Shown: positions 195 to 53,195 of the stretch, one piece after another | Layout: the number at the start of each line of letters is the position of its first letter | Position numbering within the stretch: the stretch's first letter is position 1 | Virus record (IMG/VR): IMGVR_UViG_3300046780_000292 | Location: 1 to 57,007 of that record | DNA from: a virus | Lineage: Duplodnaviria; Caudoviricetes | Length of the DNA: 57,007 nucleotides | Reading direction: 5' to 3' (one strand) | Position numbers and translations under genes: made by a program | The notes under the pieces: model-generated | Database searches by the model: none | Seen by the model: the letters and a program-made list of their open reading frames with translations, nothing else | Told to the model about the DNA's origin: nothing

Positions 195-3100
195 GTTGGC
201 CTTCATGTAGGCGTCCTGGGCTTCCTGCGCCTGGCTAGCGTTGGCGGCGTGGAATGCCGACGCGGGCAGGCTTTCGTCGTGCGGGCCCGGCCCGGCGAGC
301 TTCTGCACCTTCTGGCCGGGCTCCAGCGTCACACCCTTGGGCAGGTCGATCTCGCCGGACAGCTGCTTGACGACCTTGCTGTCGGGGGTGGAGTGGGCTT
401 CCGCGTACTGCTTGCCTGCGGCGGTGCCGAGCCAGTCGGTGATCTTCTTGTGGAGCATGCCGGAGTTGCCGACGCCCAGGTTCTTCGAGTGGGTCTCGTC
501 GATGGTCTTGAGGACCTGGTCGACGGACAGCCCGTCAGAGACGGTCTTGCCGTGTGCGGCGGCCAGGTTGACGAGGTTGCCGAAGATGTCCTCGGCCGGG
601 TCGGCGAGGTACTTGCCGGAGGGCATGGCCTTGAAGTCGCTGGTGATCTGCTTCTTCAGGGGGGTGGGGATGTGGGCGATCGAGGAGTCCCCGCCGCCGA
701 GCTTTACTGGTTCGGCCGGGCCAGCGTTTTCGATCTTGGAAGTTGATGAGGCCGAACTGGGAGAACCCAGCTTCTCCGCCTTCTTCTCCGACGCCGTCTG
801 GTGCACGACGGCATGCTTCGGGCCGACCTTCGCCACCATGTAGTGCTTCGCCGTGTGCGCCTTGCCGTAGTTCGGGCCGGAGTAGCCGGAGGTCTTGTAG
901 TAGCCGGACTCGGCGGCTGCCGCCTTGACGGCCGGGGCGTCCAGCTTCGGCAGGGACCGCTTCTTCAGCCCCACATCCGTGCGGATCTTGTCGAGGCGGG
1001 CCTGCGCCTCCTTGTGCACCGAGGCCGCCTTCGACTCCAGGACCTGCCGGTGCATGACCGCGTTCAGCCAAGCCTTCTTCTCCGGACCGGCCAGCTCGAA
1101 ACCGGTCTCCGGGTCGGTGGGGACGTTCAGCTTCGCCGTGTGCTCCTGCGCGTGCGCGGTCGCGAGCATCCCGGACAGGGCCTTCAGGTCCCCGAGGTTC
1201 TGCGTCAACGGCGCGTACTCGGGGTGGGCCTTCATGTCCTGCTTCTGGGCGTACGTCTTCACCCCGTACAGGACAGCCTTGCTGGCGTGGTCGGACCACG
1301 CCTTCGAGTAGGACTCGCCGATGGTGGCGACGTCGTAGTCGGACAGCTTGATCGGCTCGGCGGGCGTCTCGGTTGCCGTCTTCGCTGCGGCGTGGAACTG
1401 GGCCTCCGCTTTGTCGAGCTTCTCCGTGGTCTGCGTCAGGGTCGTGTCGAGGTACCCGTGGGACTGCTTGACCAGCTGGATGTGCTTGACGATGACCTTC
1501 TGGTCCTGCGGGGTCAGCTTCGCGCCGGTGATGCTGTGCCCGGAGTCGGCGATGGCCAGGTGGTGCTTCTCGAAGTGCTCGAAAAGCTTCTTCTTGTTCT
1601 CCAGGGTGGCGTAGTGCTGCGTGGACGAGTTGACGAGGCCCTGGTACTTCGCGGAGATGGCAGGCGAGGATGCTTCGAGGCCCGGGTACTCCTTCAGCAG
1701 GGCGGCGGCGTACGCCTTGCCCTTCACGTTGGCGTCTTTGACCTCGGTGAGGCTGAGGTTCACCTTCGGGTTGACGCCTGCCTCGCCGAGCAGCTCCTTG
1801 GCCCGGTCGGCGATCTGCGCGTTGCTCATGTCGGCGACGGCTGGCGCGTTGGCCTTCTTCAGCCCGGCGTGCACGGCGTCGTCGAGCTGCTTCTTCGCCA
1901 GGGTGGCGGCGTCCTGAAGCTGGGTGAGGTGTTCGGGGCTGGTGTCGACCGGGTGTGTGAGCAGGTGCTGCCGGTACTTGATCAGGAACGCCTTCTCGAC
2001 GGGACTGATGTCCGGGTCGGCCAGCTTGGCGTTGACCTTGTTGAACGCCTTCTCCTTGGCGTTCTTGACGGCGTAGGCGTGCAGGTTGGCGGTGGCCACC
2101 TGCTCGAAGTGCTGGATGGCCGCGAAGACTTCAGGCTGCTTGAGCACGGAGGCGGGCGCGCCCTTGGTGCTGATCTCCGCGAGGGTCTTGGCGGTGACTG
2201 CGGCGTTCTGCGCGAGTTCTGCCGAGTCGGGGTTTTCCGTGAGGTCGGCGGCCTTCTTCGCGACGAGGTAGGTCGAGAAGACGCCGGTATTGGCGGCCAG
2301 CTCCTTGGCCTGGGCCTGGGTGACGGAGTGGTCGTGCAGGTGGGTGGAGATCCCGATTTTCGCCGGGGGTGCGGCCTTGTCGGCCGGGCCGTGAAGGGCG
2401 ACCTGCTCGTTCTTGCCCAGGTGGATGCTCGCGCCGCCCGGCGGCTTGATGACGTAGTGGCCGGTGCCGGATCCGATGCCGGTGACCTGGGAGAGCTGGG
2501 CGTGCTTGTCGGAGTCCTCGAAGCCGATGACGTGTTCGACGCCGCCGTGGCTGATCTTCACCAGGCCGTGCTTCTGGATCTCCGTGACGAGACCCTTCGG
2601 CGTCACGTGGGTGACAGCTGCTTCCGGGGTGAGCTTCTCGGCCTCGGTCGTGTGAGCCTTGGCCAGGCCGCCCTTGAACTTCTGGAGCAGCTCCTTGGTG
2701 GCGGCGATCTTCTTCGGGTCGAGGAACTTCGTCGTGCCCTTGGCCAGCTCCGCGACGATCTTGGACTGGATGTCGGGGGGCAGCGCCGCGTACTCCTCGG
2801 CGGACAGCTTCTGGTAGGCGGCCAGGTGGTTCTTCGACCAGGTCGCGCCGGGGGCCTCGCCCTTGGCCATGGCGATGGCTTCCTGGACGTGCTTGGGAAG
2901 GTCCTTCGGCTTCTCGCTGGCGGGGATCTTCGCGCTGGTGTGCACGGCCGTGGCCGGGGTGGCGATGTCCGACAGCTTCGCCGGTTCGACCTTCTTGCCG
3001 TTCTCGTGCTTGGTGACCGGCAGCGCTCCGACGACCTTGAAGCCGTTCTGCTTCTGCGAGCTGGTCAGCGGGGTGGCGAGGGCATTGGCCTCGGACTTGT

Positions 3101-4610
3101 GGAAGCCCCACACGACGACCGGCCCGTCGTGGCCCTTCTGGACCAGGCTGGCGTGCGTGTAGTCGGCGGTGCTGGTGCGGGTGATGGTCTCCCCGTTGTG
3201 CACCACCGTGTAGGTGTGCTTCGGCTTGGCGGCGGTCGTCTTGACCTTCTCGCCGAGCGATTCCGTCTTGGGCGGCTCGGGCGCGGCAGCCTTGGCGGCG
3301 GCCTTCTCGATGCCCTCCTTGACGTTGCCCGACTTCGCCTTCTCGTGGTGGGCGACCATCTTCGCGACCAGCGGGGGAAGGCCCGGCTTGCCTTCCTTGA
3401 TGTGGTCGGCGATCTCCTTGTGGAACTCGCCGATGCCGACGCCGTTCGCGCCGTGGCCGAGGCCGGGCATCTGGTCGGCGTGGGCCTGCTTGAGGGCGGC
3501 CTGCGCGTAGGCGTTGACCATGGCCTTGAACGCCTGGTGGTCTTCGACGGTCCCCTTGGCCTTCATCTTGTCGAAGGCGTCCTGGAACATCGCGGTGCCG
3601 CTGGCCTTCTTGACGCCGGGGATGGCGTCGTTGATGGCCACGGCTGCTTCGGCCTGCGCCTGGCTGGTGACCTTGGTCGGTGACGGGTGCGTGGTGGGCG
3701 GGTTTTCCAGGTCCTTGAGGGTGACCTTCTGGTAGACCTTGCCGCTCGGCGCGGTGATGGTGTCGGGCTTCTCGGCGAGCTTGGTCAGCAGGTCGTCGGC
3801 CTTCTTCTGCTGCGGCCCGAACCCATCCTTTTTGATCTTGAGCAGTTCGCCCCGGATCACGGCCTTGTCATCGTGCGACAGCCCGTTCCACTGCTCCGGG
3901 GTGATCGCGGCGGCCTTGTCGAGCTTGTACTGCGGGGTGACCTTCTCCTGGGCGATGACGAACGCGATGCCCTTCGACATCACCGTCGGCTTCTTGCCCT
4001 TCGGGCCCTTCTCCCCGCTGTTCTGCGGGATCGCCTTGACGGCCTGCCCCAGGCTGATCTTGCCGGGCTCCTTGACGTGCACACCGGCAGCGTCGGAGAC
4101 GGCCTTACCAGCAGCGTGGGCCTCGCCGGTGGCGGCGTTGGCGGTCTTGCCCGCGTTCGGGTGCTGCTTGGCGACGATCGGCTGGAGCAGCTTGTGGGGG
4201 ATCGGCTTGCCCTGGGCCTTGAGGGCTTCGATCTTCTTGATGCGGGTGTGGTTGGCCTTCTCGACGCGGGCGGCTTCCAGGGCGTGCCAGGCGGCCGGGG
4301 AGACGGAGTGCAGCGTGCCCTTCCAGCCTTTGCAGGGTCCGGGGTGCAGCGGGTTCAGGCAGGCGGTGAGGGTGCAGGTGTCGTGGGCGTCGTCGTCCTG
4401 GTGGATGGCGGCGAGGACGGTGGAGGCGATGTTCTCCGGGTTGTAACCGAGCCTGGCATCAACGGCACCGGCAGCGGCGATCAGGGAGCAGACCTGCTTG
4501 ACCGGCTCCAGGGCTTCCTGATCGATGGTCGCCTTGACGAAGAGGGTGGCCTTGCCGTTGCCCTTAGGACCCGGCGTGAAGTCGATCTTGACCAGGTCTT
4601 TCAGCTCCAT
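1..4610 (-). CDS. Giant (~1,635 aa) Lys/Ala/His-rich protein with a C-terminal VIP2-like ADP-ribosyltransferase; 5' part, continuing across the junction to the stop at 56516
   Basis: ATG at 4610 (MELKDLVKIDF...). I read the frame open to position 1, and it joins in frame (4908 nt total) to the 56516-56866 ORF. Motifs: KSYTGSSYHTYNSYLRG, LKRG, FVSTT, ENEMLL. Confidence 0.9.
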   Translation of the reverse strand, partial: MELKDLVKIDFTPGPKGNGKATLFVKATIDQEALEPVKQVCSLIAAAGAVDARLGYNPENIASTVLAAIHQDDDAHDTCTLTACLNPLHPGPCKGWKGTLHSVSPAAWHALEAARVEKANHTRIKKIEALKAQGKPIPHKLLQPIVAKQHPNAGKTANAATGEAHAAGKAVSDAAGVHVKEPGKISLGQAVKAIPQNSGEKGPKGKKPTVMSKGIAFVIAQEKVTPQYKLDKAAAITPEQWNGLSHDDKAVIRGELLKIKKDGFGPQQKKADDLLTKLAEKPDTITAPSGKVYQKVTLKDLENPPTTHPSPTKVTSQAQAEAAVAINDAIPGVKKASGTAMFQDAFDKMKAKGTVEDHQAFKAMVNAYAQAALKQAHADQMPGLGHGANGVGIGEFHKEIADHIKEGKPGLPPLVAKMVAHHEKAKSGNVKEGIEKAAAKAAAPEPPKTESLGEKVKTTAAKPKHTYTVVHNGETITRTSTADYTHASLVQKGHDGPVVVWGFHKSEANALATPLTSSQKQNGFKVVGALPVTKHENGKKVEPAKLSDIATPATAVHTSAKIPASEKPKDLPKHVQEAIAMAKGEAPGATWSKNHLAAYQKLSAEEYAALPPDIQSKIVAELAKGTTKFLDPKKIAATKELLQKFKGGLAKAHTTEAEKLTPEAAVTHVTPKGLVTEIQKHGLVKISHGGVEHVIGFEDSDKHAQLSQVTGIGSGTGHYVIKPPGGASIHLGKNEQVALHGPADKAAPPAKIGISTHLHDHSVTQAQAKELAANTGVFSTYLVAKKAADLTENPDSAELAQNAAVTAKTLAEISTKGAPASVLKQPEVFAAIQHFEQVATANLHAYAVKNAKEKAFNKVNAKLADPDISPVEKAFLIKYRQHLLTHPVDTSPEHLTQLQDAATLAKKQLDDAVHAGLKKANAPAVADMSNAQIADRAKELLGEAGVNPKVNLSLTEVKDANVKGKAYAAALLKEYPGLEASSPAISAKYQGLVNSSTQHYATLENKKKLFEHFEKHHLAIADSGHSITGAKLTPQDQKVIVKHIQLVKQSHGYLDTTLTQTTEKLDKAEAQFHAAAKTATETPAEPIKLSDYDVATIGESYSKAWSDHASKAVLYGVKTYAQKQDMKAHPEYAPLTQNLGDLKALSGMLATAHAQEHTAKLNVPTDPETGFELAGPEKKAWLNAVMHRQVLESKAASVHKEAQARLDKIRTDVGLKKRSLPKLDAPAVKAAAAESGYYKTSGYSGPNYGKAHTAKHYMVAKVGPKHAVVHQTASEKKAEKLGSPSSASSTSKIENAGPAEPVKLGGGDSSIAHIPTPLKKQITSDFKAMPSGKYLADPAEDIFGNLVNLAAAHGKTVSDGLSVDQVLKTIDETHSKNLGVGNSGMLHKKITDWLGTAAGKQYAEAHSTPDSKVVKQLSGEIDLPKGVTLEPGQKVQKLAGPGPHDESLPASAFHAANASQAQEAQDAYMKANGIKWSAEQKSAIKSYTGSSYHTYNSYLRGEGSAGQSTKQTVVTIQSAMMPLPQHTLLKRGTGWP

Positions 4611-4674
4611 GCGGGCATCCTACGCGATCGTTTTCGATCATGAGCCTGTCCCGCGCCGTCCCGTCTTGTCCCGC

Positions 4675-6348: not shown

Positions 6349-6521
6349 AACTCGCTCGCCGTCTGACGCATCTCGCGCAGCGCCCGGAAGGCGTCACCCA
6401 GGGAGTAGTCGCCGTCCTCCTCGATCTGGTCGGCCCAGTAGATCAGCCGACTTTTGAGGGTCTGGATGGTGGCTTCCTGTTCGCGCAGATTGTCGCGCAT
6501 CTCCGCGTCGTTTTCGATCAT
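6345..6521 (-). CDS. Hypothetical 58-aa protein (MIENDAEMRDN...)
   Basis: ATGA overlap with the portal stop; read manually. Confidence 0.6.
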   Translation of the reverse strand: MIENDAEMRDNLREQEATIQTLKSRLIYWADQIEEDGDYSLGDAFRALREMRQTASEL

Positions 6522-8473
6522 GGTGCGAGTCCGCCCCGAGCATGATGCAGGGTCGCCTTCAGCAGCTCCGAGTCGTGGACGACACCCCGGGTCAGCAGCT
6601 CCGTGCAGTACCCGCCCAGCAACTCCTCCATGGCGTCAGGGTCGACGCCCAGCATGGGGGCCTGGTCACGGATGTGGGTCCACGCACCGGCCAGCAGAGC
6701 AGGTGCGCGCTTCTGGTCCGGAACGACCCGGGTGTGCAACTCATGTTTCGGCACCGAATACCGGGCGCGCTGCGGGCCGGGCACGAGACGCCCACCGGCG
6801 ATCTCCATGGCCCGGCGTACAGCACTGTCGGCGGCGTAGAACACCTGCGTGTCGAACAGGTCGGAGCTGATCGCGGCGGCGAGCGCGCCGAGCTTCTGCT
6901 TCTTGGGCGGGCCGACGTTGCCTGCTTCGGCGTCGGCGACCGACGGGAACTGCGGCAGCCCCTTGGCCCCGGCGTCGGCGGGTTCGGTTCCGGCGGTGTC
7001 GTAGCCGGGGTCTCCGGGCATCAGGTCGCCAGGCTGGGCTGGCGGGGCCGGTGGTGCGGGGAGGCTGATCCTCGGCAGGCCGAGGATCTTCTGTACCTCG
7101 GGGTCACCGGCGTAGGCGGGCTGGGCCAGCACGAGCGCCTTGACCAGGTTGTACTCCAGCTCCTTCGCGTCGGGGGCGTCGTCGTCGGTGAAGGCGGCGT
7201 TGTCGCGGGCCGCCTTGGCGCTGATGTACTCCTTCTCCGCGTACTGGAGGGCCTGGTCGGAGCGGTTGGGGCGGACGGCGAGGGCGGCGATGTCGAACCA
7301 GAGGGTTTTCTTCTCCGGGTCTTTGACGCCTGCGGCTTTGAGGGCGGGCTGGAAGTAGCCGATGTTGAGGGCGTCGGCGAGCTGGATAAGCAGCGGCTCG
7401 ATGTGGATCTTGATCGAGGATTCCTCGATCTGCCACCCCGACCAGTGGTTCGTGCCGCCCATACCCGTCAGCACCTCGGGCGGAATGTCCAGGCTCATCG
7501 CCATCCGCCGGACGGCCGCCTCACGCATCGCCGTGATGTGCTCGGAGATCTGCGAGTCGAACGTCAGATGCTTGATCTTGTCGAGGGCATCGACCGCCAC
7601 CTGCAAGATGATCGGCACGATCGCGGCGGCGTTGTCGCGCTGCTGCAACGACGTCGCCATCGTCTGCTGCAACAGCTGCGAGAAACCCTCGATACCGGTC
7701 GGCTGCGGGTCACCCGGATTGGCCTGCGGCTGACGCGGGAAGTCGATATTGTCGGGCAGCAGCAGGATCCCGGCACCGGCCAGACGCGAATCCAGCTCGG
7801 CGAACACCCGCTTGGTGCACTGCTCCAGCTCCCGCAGCACCGGCAGGATGGCCCGGACGGTGGAGTCGGCGGCATCGTGGCGGCGGGGGTGCGGATTCCA
7901 GCAGCGGATCAGCAGGTCCTTCGCCGCGTCCAGCTTGTAGTTGCCGCCCCCGTGGGTGATGGACCGGCGCACCATGATGTCGTCGCCCCGGCGGAACACC
8001 TCCGACGAGGAGCACACATACCACTTGTCGGTGCCCCCGCCCGGGTCGGCGGTCGACTTGTAGCCCTCGGCGACGATGAACACGTCCCCGGCGGTCATCA
8101 TGTTGATGCCCATGAGCCGCTGCGCCTGGGCTTTCGCGGCGGGACTGCCGAACATGGTTTCGGCGATCAGCTTGGCCTGGTCGTCGGTGGTCTCGTCGCC
8201 TACGGTGCCGTCGTCGGCGATGTCGGCCGCGTACATGCGGCACCGGGAGATGGCGTTGCCGATCCAGTTGACGACGAACCGCATCTCACCGCAGATGTCG
8301 TAGTGCCGCCAGGCTTCCCACTGCCAGCGGTGGTCGCCGAGCTTGAACATCTGCCAGGAGGCGGCGTCACCCAGGTTGATGGGGACGGCGGCGGCCAGCA
8401 GCGCGTTGGCGGGGCGTGTCCCGGGGCCGTCGATACCTCCGGCGGGCTTGGTTTTGCGGGTCAACAGCCCCAC
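6518..8473 (-). CDS. Portal protein
   Basis: 651 aa; WQWEAWRHYD, WNPHP, SRLAGAGILLLP, NHWSGWQI motifs typical of actinophage portals. Confidence 0.9.
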   Translation of the reverse strand: MGLLTRKTKPAGGIDGPGTRPANALLAAAVPINLGDAASWQMFKLGDHRWQWEAWRHYDICGEMRFVVNWIGNAISRCRMYAADIADDGTVGDETTDDQAKLIAETMFGSPAAKAQAQRLMGINMMTAGDVFIVAEGYKSTADPGGGTDKWYVCSSSEVFRRGDDIMVRRSITHGGGNYKLDAAKDLLIRCWNPHPRRHDAADSTVRAILPVLRELEQCTKRVFAELDSRLAGAGILLLPDNIDFPRQPQANPGDPQPTGIEGFSQLLQQTMATSLQQRDNAAAIVPIILQVAVDALDKIKHLTFDSQISEHITAMREAAVRRMAMSLDIPPEVLTGMGGTNHWSGWQIEESSIKIHIEPLLIQLADALNIGYFQPALKAAGVKDPEKKTLWFDIAALAVRPNRSDQALQYAEKEYISAKAARDNAAFTDDDAPDAKELEYNLVKALVLAQPAYAGDPEVQKILGLPRISLPAPPAPPAQPGDLMPGDPGYDTAGTEPADAGAKGLPQFPSVADAEAGNVGPPKKQKLGALAAAISSDLFDTQVFYAADSAVRRAMEIAGGRLVPGPQRARYSVPKHELHTRVVPDQKRAPALLAGAWTHIRDQAPMLGVDPDAMEELLGGYCTELLTRGVVHDSELLKATLHHARGGLAP

Positions 8474-9639: not shown

Positions 9640-9640
9640 G

Positions 9641-9713: not shown

Positions 9714-9872
9714 ATGGATCCCCTACGGGGAGGTTCGCTACCGGCCCGGCTTCAAGCCCGTGATCTCCACCGGGGCCTCCTCACTCCCGCGATGGTGCTG
9801 CGGTTCGACCGTAGGGGCCAGTCATATCCCCCAGGGGCTTACGCCCAGGGCGCTGGGAGAAGCTTTTCATGA

Positions 9873-10094
9873 TCAAAAACGTCGGGAGATGACGCTCTTG
9901 CTGGGCAGCCTATGGAACAGGTGACGCGGATCGTCCTGCCAGCCGAAGCAGGCCAGACACGACGATCCGGTCCAGGCGTCGGGAACACAACCGTGGACGG
10001 TGTCGGTCCCCGCGAGCGCGCCAACCTGGACGGTGGCGCCACCGGCGAGCCGCACGTAGCGGGCGGGCAACTCGACCTCAGCGACGGCGGTCAC
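9873..10094 (-). CDS. Hypothetical protein with CxxC
   Basis: 73 aa, GTGA overlap with the upstream gene, CLAC..W.DDPRH. Confidence 0.6.
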   Translation of the reverse strand: MTAVAEVELPARYVRLAGGATVQVGALAGTDTVHGCVPDAWTGSSCLACFGWQDDPRHLFHRLPSKSVISRRF

Positions 10095-15487: not shown

Positions 15488-15496
15488 GATCGAAAA

Positions 15497-17644: not shown

Positions 17645-17917
17645 CTATCCGTCCTCGTTTTCGATCTTGGGGATGAGCGCCCAGCGCAGGCCGAGCGTCT
17701 CGGCGATGGCGAACAGCTTCGACGCGCCCGGCTCGTGCTTGCCGTTGAGCCATTCGCTGAGCTGCCCGCCGGACACGCCAGGGGTAAGGGCGGCCAGTTC
17801 GGCGCAGGTCAGGGCCTGATCGTGGCGGACGTTGTCCAGGAAGGCCAGGGCATACGGCAGGTCGGGAATGAGGATCGGTTCACCGGCCGCAGCCGGTCCA
17901 TCGGCAGGGGTCTGCAC
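17645..17917 (-). CDS. XRE-family HTH DNA-binding protein
   Basis: LTCAELAA..GVS..QLSEWLNGKHEP; GTG start after GGAG. Confidence 0.75.
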   Translation of the reverse strand: MQTPADGPAAAGEPILIPDLPYALAFLDNVRHDQALTCAELAALTPGVSGGQLSEWLNGKHEPGASKLFAIAETLGLRWALIPKIENEDG

Positions 17918-39227: not shown

Positions 39228-41150
39228 TCAGCAGTCCCCGCACGGTGCCATCACCGACACGGTCACCCGGATCGTACCGCCGGTACAGCCACCCTCCACC
39301 GGCAGCGGATTCCACTCCCCGACGGCCCGCCGCTGTGTCGGGGCGAAGCAGCACGCCGCCGCCCGCCGCATCAGCGTCTGATGCTGCTGCTGCGTCGTGA
39401 AGGCGGTCTGCCAGTCGGCGGTGCTGGGCGGGTCGATGTTCTCGAAACTGTCGTCGGAATCCGACCAGGGCATGCAGTACGCGGAGCCCATCTCCAGCAC
39501 CACGGCGTAGGCGAGCGGCCCGCACGGCAGCCAGTCGTAATCCGGGCTCGGGAACGAATCCCACGACGGGTATACGTTCGCGACCCGCACCCAGGCCAGA
39601 CCGGCGCAGCACTCGTCCACGTTCGGCCCGATCAGGGGCCCCGTGTCCGTCCCGACCCGCAGCTGAACGTATTTGGGCGGGGAGGGCAGATTGTTCATCT
39701 GCTCGGTGAGGCAGGCCAGCAGCGCGTTGGCGACCGGCGTGGCGATCGGGTCGACGGGCCCGGACGGCGAGGAGAGCCGCGCGACCATGCTGGCGTTCGC
39801 CGACAGCGCGGCGGCCACCCGCGCCTCGGTCACAGGGGAGGCCGTCAGGCTGGCGTTGGCGACCAGGGCCGCCGCCGCTCGCGCTTCGGTGACCATCGTC
39901 GCGGCCAGGCTGGCGTTGGCCGACAGGTTCGCGGCGACGATCACGTCCCCGCCGCCGGAGGCGGTGAAGGCCGGGTCGACGAAGTACGCCCCGCCGCTGA
40001 ACGAGTCGTACGGATAGGTGTTGGGCGGCTGGCCGATCTTGAAGACGCCGTTGTAAAGGCCACCGAACGGCGCGGTGCGGGTCTGGAGGCCGGTGATGTG
40101 CCCGTTCACCAGCGACGACGACGCGAAGAAGTTGCTGGTCGCCACGTAGGAGACGCCGGTGGCGTTGTACGCGATCCGGTAGACGTGCGAGGTGTCCACG
40201 GACACCGGCGAAGGCAGGTAGACGGTGTTGTAGACGCTCGGCACGCATGCCGCCCCGTCGATGGCCTGACTGGACAGGCGGGTACCGGCTGGCGCGCCGT
40301 CGTCCAGGCCGTCCACCCGCCACACCTCAACGGTGATCGTCGGGTTGGTGGACTGAACGTTCGGGTGCGCGAAGAACCGGACGGCGTTGATCTGCCCGAC
40401 AGTGTCGAAGGTGACCGTCGTGGCGAAGGTGCTGCCCGGCAGGCTGCCGTCGGTGAAGTTCCCGGCAGGGTTGGTGGTGAACAGGGTCGCCCCGGCGCTG
40501 GAGGCCGCCTTGATCTCGACGCCGGAAATCACCCACGCGAGCGCGCCAGCAGGGACATGCTCGGAGAGGGTGTACGCGCCGATGCCCGTAACCGGGGTGT
40601 AGCCGAAGTACTGGACGCTGTTCGACCCGACGTGACCGTCGAACAGGCCGGTCTCGACGGTGGTCAGCGGCGAGTAGGCGCGGCCTGCCGGGTCGCGGCT
40701 GTTCAGGTCGACGGAGGCCCACGACATGACCGAGTTGTCGGCGGTCGTCGTGAACCCGGAGATCATGTCCCCGCCACTACCGGTGAATACGGTGAATACG
40801 GCAGGAGTGACAGCCAGGACGGCATTGCCCCACCGTTCGACGACCATCGAATGGCGGGTGGCGGTCGTCGGCATCGCCGCAGAGATCGAAAACGATCCGG
40901 GAGATCCCGACACGGTGCACGTATAGGTCGCCGACCAGCCCTTGAACCCGCCCGGGGCAGTGATCTGGTTGGCCGTGTACGTCTGGCCGCCGCCGGACGG
41001 GGCAGCCATCGGCGCGCCGGTGTCCCACGTGGTCAGCTTGACCACGATCACTTCCCCGTTGGCCGGGGTGAAGGCAGGCGTCGTCAGCGTCGAGGTGTCG
41101 GTACCCGGGGAGTAGACCGGATACGAGGCGATCAGGTTCGGCTTGGCCAT
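39228..41150 (-). CDS. Fusion protein: beta-rich domains (DUF4082-like) plus a Cys-rich tail-terminator-like domain
   Basis: G.I..VRF...YFVD (DUF4082-like); C-terminal LLACL, CC.G.AWVR, LE.G, GGC.GG. Confidence 0.65.
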   Translation of the reverse strand: MAKPNLIASYPVYSPGTDTSTLTTPAFTPANGEVIVVKLTTWDTGAPMAAPSGGGQTYTANQITAPGGFKGWSATYTCTVSGSPGSFSISAAMPTTATRHSMVVERWGNAVLAVTPAVFTVFTGSGGDMISGFTTTADNSVMSWASVDLNSRDPAGRAYSPLTTVETGLFDGHVGSNSVQYFGYTPVTGIGAYTLSEHVPAGALAWVISGVEIKAASSAGATLFTTNPAGNFTDGSLPGSTFATTVTFDTVGQINAVRFFAHPNVQSTNPTITVEVWRVDGLDDGAPAGTRLSSQAIDGAACVPSVYNTVYLPSPVSVDTSHVYRIAYNATGVSYVATSNFFASSSLVNGHITGLQTRTAPFGGLYNGVFKIGQPPNTYPYDSFSGGAYFVDPAFTASGGGDVIVAANLSANASLAATMVTEARAAAALVANASLTASPVTEARVAAALSANASMVARLSSPSGPVDPIATPVANALLACLTEQMNNLPSPPKYVQLRVGTDTGPLIGPNVDECCAGLAWVRVANVYPSWDSFPSPDYDWLPCGPLAYAVVLEMGSAYCMPWSDSDDSFENIDPPSTADWQTAFTTQQQHQTLMRRAAACCFAPTQRRAVGEWNPLPVEGGCTGGTIRVTVSVMAPCGDC

Positions 41151-42462: not shown

Positions 42463-43155
42463 TCAGCTCGCGCAACCGCACGAGGCGGCAGGCGGAGCCA
42501 GGTACGTCCACTGAAGGTGCCGGTGCGTGTCGCTCGGCAGAGCGATCAGCAGCTTCTCGGAGATCCCAGTGGTCATGTTGGCGAGCACGTTCTTGGGGCC
42601 GGTGCCCCAGTTGGTGCCCTGCTTGGTGCGGCCCTTCACCGAGAACGACACCGCGCCGTTTTCGATCTTCAGGTCGCCGACAGTGCCCTCGACCACGTTC
42701 GGCAGCAGGAAGTAGCCGTACGGCACCAGCGAGAACGTGCCGAGCGTGACGCACGTCGGCGCGGAAATGTTCGTCCACACCTCCAGCGCGAACTGCCCGG
42801 CCGCGTAGTTACTGGTGCGCGTCTGGAAGCCGACCGCCTTCGGCGACGCCGAGTCGTCCAGGACCAGCGTCGAGCCGGTCACCAAGTTGAACAACTCGGG
42901 GTCGACGTTGCAGAAGGTGATCGTCACATCGATCCACTTCAGCTGCTTCGGCGACTTCTCGTTGACGCACATCAGACCGGCCGCGTTCAGGACAACGATC
43001 TCCTGACCGGACTCGACCTGATCCTGCATCTCCACCGACACGAAGCCGGTCGAAACGGCCGACACGCAGGAACCCGTAGCCGGGGTACCACACGAGTTGA
43101 TCGTCTGGACCCGCATGGTGGTGCCCTGGATAGGGACCTGACATACGGCCGTCAT
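42463..43155 (-). CDS. Major tail protein
   Basis: R....CG.P, GFVSV, NA.G..C, FC.VDP, FALEVW, YGYFLLP motifs. Confidence 0.85.
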   Translation of the reverse strand: MTAVCQVPIQGTTMRVQTINSCGTPATGSCVSAVSTGFVSVEMQDQVESGQEIVVLNAAGLMCVNEKSPKQLKWIDVTITFCNVDPELFNLVTGSTLVLDDSASPKAVGFQTRTSNYAAGQFALEVWTNISAPTCVTLGTFSLVPYGYFLLPNVVEGTVGDLKIENGAVSFSVKGRTKQGTNWGTGPKNVLANMTTGISEKLLIALPSDTHRHLQWTYLAPPAASCGCAS

Positions 43156-46757: not shown

Positions 46758-48455
46758 ATGTCGGAAACTCATGATCATTTCACGCCTGATGCGTTGGACG
46801 AGAGCATCAGGCTGGCCGAGGTAATCGGTGCAAAACTTCACCTCGACCGGGCCGTCAACCCGCGCGCCGGAGAGAAGGTGTGCATCGGCACCCCACACCT
46901 CAACGAGGCGGGCTGGAACTACGTCGAGTCACTCTGGCGGATGGCCGCCTACGACAAGGCCCACGGGAACCACCTGCTGCACAACTCCGGGCTGATGAAC
47001 AACGGCTCGTTCTGCCCCGTCTGGGGCCGCTCCATGGAGCTGTCGCACGCCCGCAACACCGCGACCGCCGCGTTCCTGTCCAGCGAATCGGACTGGCTGC
47101 TCTGGATCGACTCCGACATCGGCTTCGAGCAGGACGCCCTGGAGAAGCTGCTGGACCGCGCCCATCCCGACACCGCGCCGATCGTCGGCGGGCTGTGCTT
47201 CATCGAAGGCGACTACACGCACGACATGCGCGGCGGGCTGCGCTCCAGCCTCGCCCCCACCCTGTACGACTGGGCCTGGGTCGAGCCGAAGAACGGCATG
47301 CCCGGCGCGTACAAGATGGTCACCCGCTCGTCATGGCCGGAGGACATCGCAACCCGGGTCGGGGCGACCGGCTGCGGCCTGCTGCTGACCCACCGGTCCG
47401 TCTACGAGAAGATCTCCTACTGGCTGCGGGAGCAGGGCGCACCCCCGCACATCTGGTTCGACCGGATTCCCGGCCCCGACGGTGAGCTGTGCGGCGAGGA
47501 CGTGTCGTTCTGCCTGCGCGCCCACCAGGTGGATCTGCCGGTCCTCGTGCACACGGGCGTGACCACCACCCACCAGAAGACGATCTGGTACGGGGTGCCG
47601 GAGTACAAGGCGAAGCCGTTCACGCCGCCCGCGTCGAACCTGCTGCTGCTGCCCCCGGACCAGTGGCCGAAGCTGATGATCAACCAGAACGCCGTCGAGC
47701 AGGCCGCCCGCAACTCCCCCATGGGCGAGAAGCAGGTTCCGGAGACCACCGAAGAGGTGGCCATCATCGTGCCAGTCGCGCAGCGGAACAACAGCGCCAC
47801 GTTCCTGGAGAGCCTCGAAGCGTCCCTCACGGAGCAGCAGCGCCGGACCGTGGCCGTATACGTGATGACCGACGAGGACGACGACCACACCGAGCAGTCC
47901 TGGTACCTCGCGTCGCTCGATCACCACCTGACAACGGCCATCGACCACCACCGTTATCCGCGCCCGATGGGTTCCTTCGCCGAGAAGGTGAACCGGGGCT
48001 ACGAAACCTCCTGGCAGCCGTGGATCTTCCTGGTCGGCGACGATGTCCGCTTCCACAAGGGCTGGCTGGACCACGCGATGGAGACGGCCAGGTCCACGGG
48101 CAAGGCCGTGATCGGCACCAACGACCTGGGCAACCCGGCGGTCATGGCCGGGACGCACGCGACCCACATGTTCATCCGCCGTGACTACGTCGACATCGAG
48201 GGCGCGTCGTGGGACGGTCCGGGCGTCGTCTGCCACGAGGGATACCGGCACTGGTTCGTTGACGACGAGATCGTCAACGTGGCGAAGATCCGCGACCAGT
48301 GGGCCCCGAGTCTGTCGTCTCACGTCGAGCATCTGCACCCGTACTGGGGCAAGGCCGAGCGGGACAAGGTGTACGCCATCGGCGCGGCGGCGGCGGACGG
48401 TGACGCGGGCCTTTGGGCGGAGCGGGTGCGGCAGTACGCAGGAGGAGAGTCATGA
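46758..48455 (+). CDS. Tandem-domain GT-A glycosyltransferase
   Basis: ARN..WIDSD, G.G.LL.HR, GED..FC; second domain IIVP, K.N.G, GDD, H.F.DDE, H.HP. Confidence 0.85.
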   Translation: MSETHDHFTPDALDESIRLAEVIGAKLHLDRAVNPRAGEKVCIGTPHLNEAGWNYVESLWRMAAYDKAHGNHLLHNSGLMNNGSFCPVWGRSMELSHARNTATAAFLSSESDWLLWIDSDIGFEQDALEKLLDRAHPDTAPIVGGLCFIEGDYTHDMRGGLRSSLAPTLYDWAWVEPKNGMPGAYKMVTRSSWPEDIATRVGATGCGLLLTHRSVYEKISYWLREQGAPPHIWFDRIPGPDGELCGEDVSFCLRAHQVDLPVLVHTGVTTTHQKTIWYGVPEYKAKPFTPPASNLLLLPPDQWPKLMINQNAVEQAARNSPMGEKQVPETTEEVAIIVPVAQRNNSATFLESLEASLTEQQRRTVAVYVMTDEDDDHTEQSWYLASLDHHLTTAIDHHRYPRPMGSFAEKVNRGYETSWQPWIFLVGDDVRFHKGWLDHAMETARSTGKAVIGTNDLGNPAVMAGTHATHMFIRRDYVDIEGASWDGPGVVCHEGYRHWFVDDEIVNVAKIRDQWAPSLSSHVEHLHPYWGKAERDKVYAIGAAAADGDAGLWAERVRQYAGGES

Positions 48456-49102
48456 TCGAAAACGAGAGGCAGTTGCCAGTCAAGCTGCACCCCTTCCCGC
48501 ATCTGGTGGCGGACGGGCTGTTCCACGACAGCATCCTGGAGAACGTCCTGAAGGAGTTCCCCGCGCCCGACGCGGCAGGCTGGCGTTCGTTCTCCAACAG
48601 TACGGAGCGGAAGCTGGAAGGCAGCAGCCCGCGCATGTGGGGGGTGGCCACAACGCTGGTCCTGCGTCAGATGGAGCTTCAGGCCCCCGGTCTGGCGAAG
48701 GCGTTCGGTACGCCGCCGCTGACGATGGAGACGACCGGCGGGGGCTACCACCTGATCGAGCCGGGCGGCTACCTGGCGATGCACGCCGACTTCTCCCGCT
48801 CCCCCGCGACCGGCCTGTACCGGTGGCTGAACATGCTGGTCTACCTCAACCATGACTGGGATGAGGAGGGCGGCTGCCTTCAGCTCTGGGACGACGACGG
48901 CCCGGCCGTCACGGTCGCACCGCAGTTCAACCGGACCGTCGTGTTCCGCACCTCCGGATCGTCGTGGCATGGGCATCCCGTGCCGAACACCCGGCCGCGC
49001 CGTTCGGTGGCCGCCTACTTCTACGCCTCGGAGCCGCCGCCCGGCTATGCGGGTGACCACTCGACCCGCTGGCACCCGAAGGCGGGGCAGCCCGGTGCAT
49101 GA
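48452..49102 (+). CDS. 2OG-Fe(II) oxygenase (prolyl-hydroxylase-like)
   Basis: PFPH...D, GGG.H, H-A-D, YLN..W...GG.L.LW, FNR.V.F, SWHG, R.S...Y. Confidence 0.9.
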   Translation: MIENERQLPVKLHPFPHLVADGLFHDSILENVLKEFPAPDAAGWRSFSNSTERKLEGSSPRMWGVATTLVLRQMELQAPGLAKAFGTPPLTMETTGGGYHLIEPGGYLAMHADFSRSPATGLYRWLNMLVYLNHDWDEEGGCLQLWDDDGPAVTVAPQFNRTVVFRTSGSSWHGHPVPNTRPRRSVAAYFYASEPPPGYAGDHSTRWHPKAGQPGA

Positions 49103-51176: not shown

Positions 51177-53195
51177 CTACTCCACCAGGGCGACGAGAAG
51201 ATCGCCCACGGCCTCAGCATAATCGGCCGCGCTGGAGTCGGCCGTGGCCGACGCGAGCAGCTCCCGCCACTCGGCGGCCCGCGCCTGCTGCTCGGCGATG
51301 GCCGCATTCTCGGCCGCCATACCCCGCGCGACAGCCCGGCCCAGCGCCTCCATGTCGACGCCGCCCGGAAGGCCCTGCTCTTCGTCGTCGATGACGCGGG
51401 GGAGGACACCTGCGGCCGTCAGGGACAGCACCTCGTCGTCCTCGGTAAAACCGCTGATCATCGAGGCGACCAGGACCCGGGGGATGGGGAAGCCTGCCGT
51501 GTTGACGTGCAGGGCGGCCACCATCTCCAGGTTGCCGCCGATCCGCCGCCAGTCGCCCGACAGGGGTGCGGCGCGCATGGCCCGGACAGCGGTGTCGTCG
51601 GCGTCAGGGGCGAGGGTGCCAGACACCCAAATGCCATGCTCGTCCTCACCGGCGCGCACGAGGGCACCGACGTTGGACGTCTGGTCGTAGTGCTCGGCCG
51701 CCGCCCGGTAGCCGAGGTTCGGCTGAGCGTGCCCGCCGCCGTATGTCAGGCGGCCCACAGCGACCCGGGAGCCGTCATCGGTGGCCACCTCGCCGGTGTG
51801 GAAGTAGGCGTACGACGTGAGGGACTTGGGTGGCTTGACGCAGGAGTCGCCGATGCCGACGTGGCAGGTGTCCCAGACGGCGACGTGCCCGTAGACGCGG
51901 CCGTCGTCGCCGATGTGCAGCGGGGTCGGGCCGGGCAGCTTCGGGTCGTCGAACCAGCCCTTGGGAGGGGCGACCGGGGCGGCCCCGGCCATGAGCGCGG
52001 CCATCTTCTCTCCGGCCTTCCAGTTGTCGGGCAGGCTGCCCTCGCAGCCCTTGCGCTTCGCGATGGCCGTCAGGCGGCTCTTGAACTCGGCGTACGGGAT
52101 CTTCGGGTTGGCCCGGCCGTACGAGGAGACCGCGTCGGGGATGTCGGCGCAGGAGGCGATCGGGAAGCGGCGGCCCTTCGGGTCGACGAAGTCCGCGTCG
52201 TCGAGCTTCTTACGCACGGCGGTCTTGGTGACGTCGGGCCCGCCGGGGGCGTAGTCGCTGTCTCCCCGATAGGTGCCGCCGCCCTGGGCCTGCTCGCCGT
52301 CGGTGCCCTGCATCTCCGGCTGGTTGGCCTTGTTCGGGCGAGGCAGCTTCTTCGCGAACTCCTCGAACTCGGTATCCGAGAGCCAGATGCCGGATCCGAA
52401 CTCCTCGTCGTCCTGGTTGCCCTTGACCTTCTCGGGATCAAGCTTGCGCTTCTTGGCGGCCATCTCGCCGTCGTTTTCGATCTTGTCGTCGCTCGGGTCC
52501 ACACCGCCCCACTCGACTCCGGCCCAGTCGAACAACCCCGCCATGTCAGTGAAGTCGGCGGCCGTTGCCATCATCGCGGAGGAGGTGGTGCCGTCCACGT
52601 TCGGATCCGACGAGTCGATCGGGGTGAGCTTCGCGTGCCCGGACAGTTCGGCGAACGCGGGAATGTGCACCAGCGTGGCCGACGCCATCCGGCCCGAACG
52701 GATCATCCGCAGGCGTGGCCCGTCGTAGGCCTCTTCGGCCATCACCGGATCGGAGCCGCAACCGCAGTCCCCGCCGCTGGCCTTCGAGTGGGCCATCTTC
52801 GCGGCCTTCAGCTTCCCAGCCTGCATCTTCTTCCAGGCGGTGTACGCCTTGGGCTCGGGGACGTGCTCAACTTCCTGCTGGTCGAGGTCGACGCTGGGTC
52901 CGATGACCTTGTTCTCGGTGAACTTCTTCGCGGCGATGGCCGCGTTGCGCACCTCGTCGGGCCACGACTCGTCGTCGTAGAACTCTCCCTTGGCCGGGAG
53001 GAGGCCGTCCTTCTCCCGGCCAATCTTGGAGATGTGCCCGACGATCACCGCGTTCTGGTGGCCGCCGGAGTCCTGGGCGACGTACCGGAACGGGAGCGGC
53101 AGGTCCCGGTGCCCGAGAGCGCCCGGGTCGAACTGGCGGCCGTCGCCGGTGGGCTTCCCGATGACGGCGAGCGGCATCTGCCAGGCGGTTCCCAT
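51177..53195 (-). CDS. Capsid maturation protease, multidomain (with DUF6582-like insert)
   Basis: W...LA..G.PTGDGR, ATLV.IPAF, GRVYGH.A.W..CH, SGDWR, VN..GFP motifs. Confidence 0.85.
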   Translation of the reverse strand: MGTAWQMPLAVIGKPTGDGRQFDPGALGHRDLPLPFRYVAQDSGGHQNAVIVGHISKIGREKDGLLPAKGEFYDDESWPDEVRNAAIAAKKFTENKVIGPSVDLDQQEVEHVPEPKAYTAWKKMQAGKLKAAKMAHSKASGGDCGCGSDPVMAEEAYDGPRLRMIRSGRMASATLVHIPAFAELSGHAKLTPIDSSDPNVDGTTSSAMMATAADFTDMAGLFDWAGVEWGGVDPSDDKIENDGEMAAKKRKLDPEKVKGNQDDEEFGSGIWLSDTEFEEFAKKLPRPNKANQPEMQGTDGEQAQGGGTYRGDSDYAPGGPDVTKTAVRKKLDDADFVDPKGRRFPIASCADIPDAVSSYGRANPKIPYAEFKSRLTAIAKRKGCEGSLPDNWKAGEKMAALMAGAAPVAPPKGWFDDPKLPGPTPLHIGDDGRVYGHVAVWDTCHVGIGDSCVKPPKSLTSYAYFHTGEVATDDGSRVAVGRLTYGGGHAQPNLGYRAAAEHYDQTSNVGALVRAGEDEHGIWVSGTLAPDADDTAVRAMRAAPLSGDWRRIGGNLEMVAALHVNTAGFPIPRVLVASMISGFTEDDEVLSLTAAGVLPRVIDDEEQGLPGGVDMEALGRAVARGMAAENAAIAEQQARAAEWRELLASATADSSAADYAEAVGDLLVALVE

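What the first reader, a model, noticed from the sequence alone, without database searches (positions are those of the whole stretch)
725..52485. About 18 copies of an AT-rich 14-mer (CAWGATCRAAAACG) across the genome, overriding codon bias
Seen as CGTTTTYGATCWTG-like at 725, 3827, 4629, 6509, 14656, 17656, 24625, 30989, 38408, 42657, 52472, and in the reverse orientation at 9868, 15485, 26009, 28347, 36024, 40881, 48451. Twelve carry the exact core GATCGAAAAC; a rough estimate at ~68% GC expects well under 0.1 copy. Most are intragenic and use codons rare here (GTT TTC GAT CTT in the tape measure, TTT TCG ATC TCT at 40881, ATT TTT GAT CTT at 28347) or recur as K/M-I-E-N. Mean spacing is about 3 kb, 12 sense and 6 antisense. 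Known: L5-type stoperators are polar relative to transcription; these are not. Inference: a non-polar protein-binding lattice for genome organisation, partition, packaging or protection. It might be read by the two ParB-like or the HTH proteins. Every copy contains GATC, so methylation could gate binding.
Basis: partly seen in the sequence, partly recalled or inferred. Interest (0 to 1): 0.85.

Follow-up and report, generated by a model that had tools for sequence, protein, structure and literature searches.

The report
Genome-wide protein-landing DNA word in phage
An uncultured soil phage and all its close relatives keep about 17 scattered copies of one 17-letter DNA word, even inside essential genes, which most likely serves as the landing site of a still unidentified DNA-binding protein acting on the whole genome.

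Summary
The window is a whole 57,007-bp virus record. It holds exactly 18 copies of yCAWGATCRAAAACGAy. Their PSSM scores are 21.9-31.9 and the next best site scores 10.2. Shuffles give 0.0-0.4 and a codon-usage model gives 0.003.

All 15 complete relatives (~76% nt identity) carry 14-22 copies. Three complete outgroup phages carry none, or two weak matches. Some positions are fixed in 16/16 genomes, with silent sites frozen: identity 0.89 against 0.58 in flanks. Others turn over, giving 75 positions in all.

Where coding does not constrain it, orientation is 42:42 relative to transcription. The intragenic sense bias is explained by codon cost. This makes it a double-stranded DNA signal, not an L5-type polar stoperator, promoter or peptide repeat. 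It is not a host genome word in the 406 Actinomycetota genomes searched.

The reader protein is unknown. The best candidate is an orphan ParB/Noc/KorB-fold protein (19011-19922). The window's HTH_3 and HTH_17 genes are excluded, and GATC as such is not special (418 copies). Similar dispersed words were noted earlier in this scan on other phage DNA.

The parts
725..738 (-). motif copy inside the giant ART-ending gene 3-4610(-), sense, frame K-I-E-N
   Evidence: PSSM 28.0; context; same position occupied in 5 of 16 genomes
3827..3840 (-). motif copy (variant ...AAAAAGG) inside gene 3-4610(-), sense
   Evidence: PSSM 26.3; 3 of 16 genomes. The aligned relatives show it decaying
4629..4642 (-). 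intergenic copy upstream of the giant gene: motif, 6 nt, TAGGAT, 6 nt, ATG
   Evidence: PSSM 31.9; sequence. Two clusters at this place hold 4 + 8 genomes. TANNNT sits 5-6 nt after the motif in 17 of 285 sites, against 0.22 expected per offset
6509..6522 (-). copy on an ATGA stop/start overlap (stop of 6518-8473, start of 6345-6521); its ATG is the start codon
   Evidence: PSSM 29.9; 9 of 16 genomes
9868..9881 (+). junction copy, antisense to neighbouring gene 9873-10094(-)
   Evidence: PSSM 28.7; singleton position
14656..14669 (-). copy 818 nt into the large terminase gene, sense
   Evidence: PSSM 30.1; 16 of 16 genomes at the same offset. Third-codon identity is 0.90 in the motif against 0.65 in flanks
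15485..15498 (+). copy covering the TerL start codon in antisense; 831 bp from the previous copy, diverging from it
   Evidence: PSSM 28.5; 13 of 16 genomes. The 831-bp pair shows in the position lists
17656..17669 (-). copy at the 3' end of the window-specific HTH_3 gene, 11 nt before the start of 17249-17644
   Evidence: PSSM 30.1. A sense copy lies 11-497 nt upstream of the 17249-17644 orthologue in 15 of 16 genomes
24625..24638 (-). junction copy among plus-strand early genes, antisense
   Evidence: PSSM 31.5; singleton by flank clustering
26009..26022 (+). weak intergenic copy, followed by AGGAGG and the ATG of 26039-26458
   Evidence: PSSM 21.9; singleton
28347..28360 (+). copy inside the membrane-protein ORF 28261-28620(-), antisense (ATT TTT GAT CTT)
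   Evidence: PSSM 23.0; ORF read; 15 of 16 genomes
30989..31002 (-). copy (GATCC variant) in tail-region gene 30393-31610(-), sense
   Evidence: PSSM 24.0; 5 of 16 genomes
36024..36037 (+). copy in the 792-aa putative tape measure gene 34615-36993(-), antisense
   Evidence: PSSM 30.2; 12 of 16 genomes. Third-codon identity 0.89 against 0.63. The gene name rests on size and position only
38408..38421 (-). copy in gene 38172-38528(-), sense
   Evidence: PSSM 30.4; 16 of 16 genomes. Third-codon identity 0.96 against 0.52
40881..40894 (+). copy in gene 39228-41150(-), antisense
   Evidence: PSSM 22.7; 6 of 16 genomes
42657..42670 (-). copy in gene 42463-43065(-), sense
   Evidence: PSSM 24.9; 13 of 16 genomes
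48451..48464 (+). copy on the ATGA overlap between the glycosyltransferase and 2OG-Fe(II) oxygenase genes; its ATG is the start codon
   Evidence: PSSM 29.1; 10 of 16 genomes
52472..52485 (-). copy in gene 51177-53195(-), sense
   Evidence: PSSM 30.4. K-I-E-N aligns in 5 of 5 orthologues compared, which joins it to a 10-genome cluster
19011..19922 (-). candidate reader: orphan ParB/Noc/KorB-fold protein (303 aa) with a GxRR box, a helical DNA-binding region and a C-terminal coiled coil
   Evidence: PHROG ParB-like families. S51 G52 R54 R55 are invariant in 16 of 16. AF2 pLDDT 80.8. Foldseek hits to Noc, ParB and KorB, E 4e-6 to 4e-3. Present in 15 of 15 relatives. Not found in its clade form in 3 outgroups
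18229..19014 (-). second ParB-fold protein (DUF6551, DGQHR motif), overlapping the previous gene by 4 nt
   Evidence: Pfam PF20188, E 7.6e-13; sequence. Present in 15 of 15 relatives and, at 32%, in motif-less G016
20443..20715 (+). weaker candidate reader: first gene of the rightward early operon, probably a MerR/excisionase-type winged HTH
   Evidence: DLAGIA-HM..R.TPQQW.QR is invariant in 16 of 16. Atlas look-alikes are MerR_1/HTH_17, scores 0.91-0.93. No Pfam hit. AF2 pLDDT 47. Homologues exist in motif-less G425 and G426

Best explanation
The word yCAWGATCRAAAACGAy, with unconstrained optimum CATGATCAAAAACGATG plus a weak GGAGAW tail, is a lineage-specific binding site in double-stranded DNA for a sequence-specific protein. 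A clade of uncultured ~57-kb soil siphoviruses keeps it at 14-22 dispersed places per genome, in either orientation. The host is probably an actinobacterium; Streptomycetaceae is only a lead.

The most likely reader is phage-encoded. The best single candidate is the orphan ParB/Noc/KorB-fold protein gp19011-19922, possibly working with its DGQHR ParB-fold neighbour. By analogy with KorB on RK2 and Noc on the Bacillus chromosome, it would load at these sites and spread or slide. That would mark, organise or silence the whole phage chromosome, rather than block transcription in a polar way.

Shown: the motif, its selection at DNA level, its independence of orientation, its restriction to the clade, and the fold of the candidate.

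Inferred: that a protein binds the site, which protein it is, and what binding achieves.
For: 1. Enrichment is far beyond composition and codon usage: 18 copies against 0.0-0.4 in shuffles and 0.003 under the codon model.
2. The motif is held in all 15 complete relatives at about 76% nt identity, 14-22 copies each. The reversed control gives 0 in all.
3. There is purifying selection on silent sites. Pairwise identity at third-codon positions is 0.89 in the motif against 0.58 in flanks, Mann-Whitney p 5e-9. Two positions are fixed in 16 of 16 genomes.
4. Positions turn over while the number stays roughly constant: 285 sites fall at 75 positions. This points to selection on density as well as on place.
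5. Junction copies are 42 sense: 42 antisense. The sense reading frame K/M-I-E-N holds 98% of chance probability under codon usage, so the intragenic sense bias (158:43) needs no polarity.
6. Unconstrained copies prefer T at position 3 (17 of 24 positions, against 5 of 38 intragenic sense). They also prefer A at position 8 (12 of 24 against 10 of 38). The coding copies are therefore compromises on one optimum.
7. The word was not found as a host genome word. It has 0 hits in 5 Streptomyces/Kitasatospora genomes. In 401 Actinomycetota genomes no genome has more than 2 hits.
8. gp19011-19922 has a confident ParB/Noc/KorB-like fold and an invariant GxRR box. Its clade form occurs only where the motif occurs. 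A conserved copy lies just downstream of its gene cassette in 15 of 16 genomes.
9. Sites lie singly, as expected for loading sites. Minimum gaps are mostly above 400 bp. Spacing is somewhat more even than random: the CV is below the simulated mean in 15 of 16 related, hence non-independent, genomes.
Against: - No binding was measured, and nothing links any particular protein to the word.
- Sites of known ParB-family proteins are palindromes (KorB OB and OA in PMC11790492). This word is asymmetric, with only a weak dyad.
- The predicted HTH recognition helix of gp19011-19922 varies among orthologues although the motif does not.
- Several other proteins have the same phylogenetic profile: TerS, 17880-18227, 17249-17644, 13555-13815 and 12703-13056.
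- Outgroup G016 keeps a diverged GERR-box homologue and the DUF6551 protein. I found no analogous dispersed word there.
- No ParA, KorA-like partner or integrase was seen among the roughly 60 proteins scanned.
- About a quarter of copies sit directly upstream of a same-strand start codon (70 of 285). 17 of 285 sit at a fixed distance from a TANNNT box. So part of the set may act in gene expression.
Confidence: 0.4

Rival explanations
1. The copies are operator-type sites of a transcription regulator, for example the early winged-HTH protein gp20443-20715. They would be a dispersed operator set like P1 C1 operators or L5 operators/stoperators, used for temporal control or for silencing in a carrier state.
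For: - The copy upstream of the giant gene lies over the -35/spacer region of a TAGGAT-6 nt-ATG arrangement in about 12 genomes.
- 70 of 285 copies lie within 25 nt upstream of, or on, a same-strand start codon.
- gp20443 has an invariant HTH-like core in 16 of 16 genomes, and its Atlas look-alikes are MerR/excisionase proteins.
- Monomeric repressors reading asymmetric 13-mers at more than 20 sites are known (PMC9283540 passages).
Against: - About 70% of copies are deep inside genes.
- Orientation is not tied to transcription at unconstrained copies, 42:42. Polarity is a defining trait of stoperators.
- No copy lies in the divergent early promoter region 20327-20442.
- gp20443 homologues carrying a TP[QN]QW[RK]Q helix occur in G425 and G426, which have 0 and 2 weak copies.
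- No integrase or repressor was found, and no prophage relative exists in 185,579 species genomes.
Confidence: 0.2
2. The word is the binding site of a conserved host protein (a nucleoid protein or global regulator) that the phage recruits.
For: - The motif is invariant across phages whose candidate readers are only 45-66% identical.
- It is AT-rich with an A-tract, set in a 67% GC genome.
Against: - No enrichment was seen in 5 + 401 Actinomycetota genomes. The maximum is 2 per genome, and the total is 45 against 10 for the reversed control.
- Three outgroup phages of like GC content and gene order lack it.
- The host is not identified, so the right genome may not have been sampled.
Confidence: 0.1
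3. The copies are sites of an enzymatic DNA transaction: sequence-specific nicks (as in T5, tf and phiKMV-like phages; recalled), site-specific modification, or terminase/TerS recognition.
For: - Three conserved copies bracket the TerS-TerL region.
- An HNH endonuclease gene is conserved.
- The number and length of the sites resemble nick-site consensus sets (recalled).
Against: - The copies lie on both strands and all round the genome.
- The HNH gene and the 25180-25470 gene are also present in outgroups that lack the motif.
- No DNA methyltransferase was found among the proteins scanned.
- Headful packaging needs one pac site, not 17 (general knowledge).
- Only assembled contigs of DNA runs were on offer, so read ends could not be examined.
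Confidence: 0.1
4. The word is an RNA- or translation-level element, either a start-associated sequence as in Cluster K mycobacteriophages (recalled) or a phage-specific promoter.
For: - 54 copies lie 6-19 nt upstream of a same-strand start codon, and 12 provide the ATG themselves.
- A purine-rich GGAGAW tail resembles a Shine-Dalgarno box.
Against: - Junction copies are as often antisense as sense.
- The tail is also present at antisense intragenic copies.
- Conserved copies sit in mid-gene, for example TerL +818 in 16 of 16 genomes.
- The hairpin GATCG-AAAA-CGATC is broken in the preferred A8 variant.
- No RNA polymerase or sigma gene was found among the proteins scanned.
Confidence: 0.05

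Closest known systems
Operators/stoperators of Cluster A mycobacteriophages (L5 gp71, TipsytheTRex repressor; PMC9283540, passages read)
   Same: A short asymmetric word (13 bp there, 14-17 bp here) occurs at more than 20 (there) or 14-22 (here) places spread over a ~50-57 kb actinophage-like genome. It is conserved within a lineage.
   Different: - Stoperators lie in promoters and short intergenic gaps, and their orientation follows transcription. Reversed sites fail.
- Here about 70% of copies are intragenic and unconstrained copies are 42:42.
- No gp71-like repressor, integrase or parABS was seen, and no copy lies at the early promoters.
KorB OB operators on plasmid RK2 (PMC11790492, passages read) and Noc binding sites on the Bacillus chromosome (recalled)
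   Same: - A ParB-fold CTP-switch protein without a segregation role loads at dispersed sites, some far from any promoter, and acts at a distance.
- The window encodes a ParB/Noc/KorB-fold protein with a GxRR box.
- The replicon size (~60 kb) and site number are of the same order. The figure of 12 OB sites on RK2 is recalled, not seen in the passages.
   Different: - OB, OA and NBS sites are perfect palindromes; this word is asymmetric.
- No KorA or IncC/ParA partner was found.
- CTP binding and site binding were not tested.
- The element is a probably lytic phage, not a plasmid.
C1 operators of phage P1 (recalled, no call)
   Same: An asymmetric 17-bp operator occurs at many places dispersed over a phage genome that also encodes a ParB.
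   Different: P1 operators sit at promoters of a temperate plasmid-prophage with a known repressor. Here most copies are intragenic and lysogeny functions were not found.
Genome-wide host words: DNA uptake sequences and Chi (recalled)
   Same: Density is about one per few kb, on both strands. Copies are written into genes in the cheapest reading frame.
   Different: Those words fill the host chromosome. This one was not found above chance in 406 Actinomycetota genomes, and at 17 bp it is much longer than Chi.
Start-associated sequences of Cluster K and 17-bp palindromes of Cluster O mycobacteriophages (recalled; PMC3203893 seen only in the listing)
   Same: These are lineage-specific short repeats of unknown reader in actinophage genomes. 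A quarter of the copies here abut start codons.
   Different: SAS are sense-oriented and always next to start codons. Cluster O repeats are palindromic and intergenic. Neither holds here.

Membership tests
Cluster A stoperator system | Many dispersed copies of one short asymmetric word | tested here: met
   18 copies in the window and 14-22 in each of 15 relatives
Cluster A stoperator system | Orientation of the copies follows the direction of transcription | tested here: not met
   Junction copies are 42 sense: 42 antisense. The intragenic bias of 158:43 is weaker than the 98:2 expected from codon cost alone
Cluster A stoperator system | Copies lie at promoters and in short intergenic gaps | tested here: not met
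   203 of 285 copies are inside called genes. None lies in the early divergent promoter region
Cluster A stoperator system | A gp71-type two-domain repressor and a temperate life style | tested here: inconclusive
   No repressor, integrase or ParA family hit among about 60 proteins scanned. No prophage relative in genome contigs. gp71 itself was not used as a query
ParB/KorB/Noc CTP-switch with dispersed loading sites | A protein with the ParB N-terminal fold, an arginine box and an adjoining helical DNA-binding domain | tested here: met
   GxRR is invariant in 16 of 16. AF2 pLDDT 80.8. Foldseek hits Noc, ParB and KorB over about 240 columns, E 4e-6 to 4e-3, though TM is only 0.2-0.4
ParB/KorB/Noc CTP-switch with dispersed loading sites | A palindromic 13-16 bp loading site | tested here: not met
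   The word is asymmetric. Only the outer CAT/ATG and ATC/GAT positions are dyad-related
ParB/KorB/Noc CTP-switch with dispersed loading sites | CTP binding and site-dependent clamp closure | not testable with these tools
   Needs biochemistry. PMC12704722 reports that phage DUF6551-type ParB folds bind CTP or ATP (passages)
ParABS partition system | A ParA ATPase partner and a centromere cluster | tested here: not met
   No ParA family hit among the proteins scanned. The copies are dispersed singly, with minimum gaps mostly above 400 bp
Host genome-wide words (DUS/USS, Chi) | The same word is over-represented in the host chromosome | tested here: not met
   0 hits in 5 Streptomyces/Kitasatospora genomes. 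In 401 Actinomycetota genomes, 44 have 1-2 hits. The host is not identified, so this holds only for the genomes searched
Start-associated sequences (Cluster K) | Sense orientation immediately upstream of start codons | tested here: not met
   Only 70 of 285 copies are next to a same-strand start codon. Junction copies are equally often antisense
Localized nick sites (T5, tf, phiKMV-like) | Single-strand interruptions at the consensus in virion DNA | not testable with these tools
   Only assembled contigs of DNA runs were offered

The most novel reading that the evidence does not exclude
An orphan ParB-fold nucleotide switch with no ParA and an asymmetric site, perhaps working with its DGQHR ParB-fold neighbour, uses about 17 loading sites written through the genes of a non-integrating, probably lytic phage. 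It would coat or organise the entire viral chromosome. This would be a virus-encoded self-DNA marking system of a kind known so far only for plasmid RK2 (KorB) and bacterial chromosomes (Noc, ParB).
Probability: 0.2. Interest if true: 0.8.

Novelty: new variant of a known kind. Interest (0 to 1): 0.6.

Why it matters
Phage genomes are usually read as strings of genes. Here a 17-bp DNA word overrides codon choice and even amino-acid choice: [KM]IEN occurs 8 times against 0.07 expected. It does so in the terminase, the tape measure and other core genes of a whole, widespread soil phage clade, so some whole-genome process depends on it.

The same clade carries orphan ParB-fold proteins. A 2025 survey found this class to be common in phages and able to bind CTP or ATP, with no known role (PMC12704722, passages read). 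A defined, testable DNA target for such a protein would open that question to experiment.

Practically, the word is a sharp marker for the clade. It is also a caution for recoding or synthetic redesign of phage genomes.

Tried and rejected
1. Mosaic-junction or recombination hotspot. Copies lie no nearer to BLAST block ends than random gene ends do (mean 3.1 against 4.4 relatives, p 0.89; junction copies 5.25 against 4.37, p 0.30). No large inversions were seen among the first five relatives.
2. Hairpin. GATCG-AAAA-CGATC can pair, but the G8-C13 pair is lost in the preferred A8 variant.
3. GATC-centred idea. The genome has 418 GATC copies.
4. An analogous word in the outgroup G016. The top k-mers are codon strings, and GGAGAGAG (17 copies) is its ribosome-binding site.
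5. Literature. The four 10-mers gave only primers and unrelated hits (200 papers held a term; the 20 listed were looked at as listing only). I found no paper on this word or clade in searches.
6. Relatives among cultured phages. There was no megablast hit, and TerL reaches at most 38.8% identity.
7. Prophage relatives. There were none in genome contigs with the profile of the putative portal protein (6518-8473).
8. More distant homologues of gp19011-19922. The 25 viral loci and the best 120 of 209 proteins all belong to the clade.
9. gp20443 structure. The AF2 model has pLDDT 47, so no fold search was run. Pfam on its 16 orthologues gave only coiled-coil noise.
10. Complex prediction of gp19011-19922 with gp18229-19014. 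No verdict: score 0.02, mark 0.32. This is evidence neither way.
11. The look-up of sequencing runs. No RNA holder was listed, and only Logan contigs of DNA runs were offered. The four runs holding at least half of the sampled words are labelled soil or rhizosphere metagenomes, and one of them may be the source.
12. TTGAC-N6-GTCAA, noted earlier in this scan. It has 3 matches at up to 1 mismatch against 0.78 expected, and 5 of 100 shuffles reach 3. This is weak.
13. Supplements were not asked for. Dataset S4 of PMC12704722, which lists the phage DUF6551 proteins tested, may bear on the ParB-fold candidates.

Full report
**What the window is.** The window is a whole IMG/VR virus record of 57,007 bp, with a CheckV completeness of 100 and 67% GC. 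I mapped genes by third-position GC. Most genes lie on the minus strand.
- Family hits name a large terminase (14069-15487), a MuF-like protein (4675-6081) and a giant protein with a weak ADP-ribosyltransferase match (3-4610).
- They also name an ERF recombinase, a replication initiator, a TerS, an HNH endonuclease and a major head protein.
- An inverted cassette carries a glycosyltransferase, a 2OG oxygenase and a methyltransferase.
- Two adjacent genes encode ParB-like proteins.
- I call 6518-8473 the portal and 34615-36993 the tape measure by position and size only.
- No integrase, ParA or repressor family turned up among about 60 proteins scanned.
- Nothing close exists among 50,697 GenBank phage records. 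TerL reaches at most 38.8% identity.

- The 14-mer has 10 exact copies against 0.00 in shuffles. The 10-mer core has 12 against 0.03. With up to 2 mismatches there are 19 against 0.40.
- A PSSM separates 18 sites (scores 21.9-31.9) from everything else (at most 10.2).
- The motif has a sharp 5' edge and runs over positions 0-16, yCAWGATCRAAAACGAy. A weak purine tail, GGAGAW, lies about 5 nt further on. The tail is seen in sense, antisense and junction copies alike.

**It is written against the coding grain.**
- Synonymous-codon shuffling lowers the 14 cores to a mean of 5.0, and codon permutation lowers them to 2.2. What remains is the unshuffled junction copies.
- A codon-usage model expects 0.003 copies per genome.
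- All 8 Ile-Glu-Asn tripeptides use ATC GAA AAC, although GAA is the minor Glu codon (180 of 869). [KM]IEN occurs 8 times against 0.07 expected. The DNA word therefore dictates peptide sequence.

**It is a property of a clade.**
- A search with the putative portal protein (6518-8473) found 46 IMG/VR loci. Of these, 44 are 73-85% identical in this protein, and all of those carry the core.
- Fifteen complete relatives align to 35-43 kb of the window at about 76% nt identity (measured for the first five). They carry 11-17 exact cores, and the reversed control gives 0. By PSSM they carry 14-22 sites each, 285 in 16 genomes.
- Three complete outgroup phages (G016, G425, G426) share structural proteins at 24-57% identity. 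They have 0, 0 and 2 weak matches.
- Among the first 118 stretches of viral contigs holding one exact 14-mer, every locus with 3 or more strong copies belongs to the clade.

**Selection acts on place and on number.**
- Flank clustering gives 75 positions.
- Some positions are fixed or nearly so: TerL +818 and 38408 in 16 of 16 genomes, 28347 in 15, the TerL start codon in 13, 42657 in 13, and 36024 in 12.
- A copy lies upstream of the 17249-17644 orthologue in 15 of 16 genomes. 52472 aligns with a 10-genome cluster.
- In the seven clusters with at least 12 genomes, pairwise identity is 0.91 in the motif against 0.66 in flanks. At third-codon positions it is 0.89 against 0.58 (p 5e-9). These clusters were chosen for having the motif, so only the two 16-of-16 positions are free of that bias.
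- Other positions are lineage-specific, yet each genome keeps 14-22 copies.
- Spacing tends to be more even than random. For the window the CV is 0.54 against 0.93, p 0.004. The CV is below the simulated mean in 15 of 16 genomes, which are related.

**Orientation.**
- Inside genes, 158 copies are sense (154 of them in one frame) and 43 antisense. At junctions the split is 42:42. After placing two copies in the missed ORF, the totals are 158 sense, 45 antisense and 82 junction.
- Under codon usage the K/M-I-E-N frame holds 98% of chance probability. The sense excess is therefore a cost effect, and antisense copies are over-represented relative to cost.
- Unconstrained copies prefer CATG over CAAG and A over G at position 8. 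This gives the optimum CATGATCAAAAACGATG. The coding copies are Lys/Glu compromises on it.
- This pattern argues for a double-stranded DNA signal read without regard to transcription. It argues against stoperators, whose polarity is essential (PMC9283540 passages). It also argues against promoters and RNA elements.

**Links to gene expression exist but are partial.**
- 70 of 285 copies abut a same-strand start codon.
- 17 of 285 precede a TANNNT box by 5-6 nt. This is chiefly the copy upstream of the giant gene: motif, 6 nt, TAGGAT, 6 nt, ATG.
- Intergenic gaps are short, so junction copies necessarily lie near ribosome-binding sites.
- No copy lies in the divergent early promoter region.

**It is not a host word.**
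- The ADP-ribosylglycohydrolase gene has its best bacterial relatives in Streptomyces and Kitasatospora, at 43-46% identity. This is only a lead to the host.
- The 14-mer is absent from five such genomes. In 401 Actinomycetota genomes it occurs at most twice per genome, 45 hits in all against 10 for the reversed control.

**Who reads it?**
- The window's HTH_3 gene and the Bro/KilAC gene are absent from all 15 relatives. The HTH_17 gene is absent from 6 of them. These three are out.
- The following are present in all 15 relatives and not detected in the three outgroups: gp19011-19922, TerS, 17880-18227 (Cys/His-rich), 17249-17644, 13555-13815, 12703-13056, ERF and a few others.
- gp19011-19922 has an invariant GxRR box and a confident model (pLDDT 80.8). 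The model matches Noc, ParB and KorB over both the N-terminal and DNA-binding domains, E 4e-6 to 4e-3 with low TM. Proteins of this family are the known users of dispersed loading sites (KorB: PMC11790492 passages).
- Three points count against gp19011-19922: the site is not palindromic, the predicted recognition helix varies, and G016 keeps a diverged GERR-box homologue with no word that I could find.
- gp20443-20715 has an invariant HTH-like core and MerR/excisionase look-alikes in the Atlas. However, homologues of it occur in G425 and G426, which lack the motif.
- The DUF6551 protein, the HNH endonuclease and 25180-25470 also occur in outgroups.

**Verdict.** This is a real, strongly selected, clade-specific DNA word that is indifferent to orientation. 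It is most likely a protein-landing site acting at the scale of the whole genome. The closest known systems are stoperators (same look, different logic) and the KorB/Noc site sets (same logic, different site symmetry). The reader protein and the function remain to be shown.

Noticed in passing
window 28261-28620 (-): A 119-aa hydrophobic ORF, probably a holin-like membrane protein, fills the apparent 300-bp gap after 27489-28268. My GC3 gene caller missed it. Motif copy 28347 lies inside it in antisense.
   Followed up: partly
window 4590-4642 (-): The giant ART-ending gene is preceded by TAGGAT, 6 nt, then ATG, a leaderless-type actinobacterial promoter arrangement. The motif occupies about -32 to -19. 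The same layout occurs in roughly 12 relatives.
   Followed up: partly
window, 6 places (12-mer GGAGGGGCCCCT): A GC-rich palindromic 12-mer occurs 6 times. GGGGCCCCT occurs 7 times against 0.39 expected under a Markov model. These look like terminator-type hairpin stems.
   Followed up: no
window 54010-55158 (-): The ADP-ribosylglycohydrolase has its best bacterial relatives in Streptomyces and Kitasatospora, at 43-46% identity (80 best of 578). This is a lead to the host lineage. The gene is present in only 9 of 15 relatives.
   Followed up: partly
window 25180-25470 (+): This 96-aa Cys/His-rich protein (phrog_6439) is the most conserved small protein of the clade, with 52% invariant residues. 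It lies next to the HNH endonuclease and is also present in all three outgroups.
   Followed up: partly
window 17880-18227 (-): This Cys/His-rich 115-aa protein lies between the ParB-fold genes and TerS. It is conserved in 15 of 15 relatives and absent from the outgroups. It may be a zinc-binding DNA-binding protein.
   Followed up: no
window 14656-15498: Two motif copies, diverging and exactly 831 bp apart, bracket the first 818 nt of the terminase gene. This holds in the window and in at least 12 relatives.
   Followed up: partly
G016 (L217-L220), 17 places: The outgroup phage uses GGAGAGAG as a near-uniform ribosome-binding site, usually 0-8 nt before ATG.
   Followed up: yes
window 50334-50402 (+): ARAGORN calls a tRNA-like gene with a two-base anticodon. 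Three ordinary tRNA genes (Phe, Arg, Met) lie at 9640-12115 on the minus strand.
   Followed up: no
window 55411-55426 and 56298-56313: Two exact TTGAC-N6-GTCAA palindromes occur. With the 1-mismatch copy there are 3 against 0.78 expected, which is only weakly above chance.
   Followed up: partly
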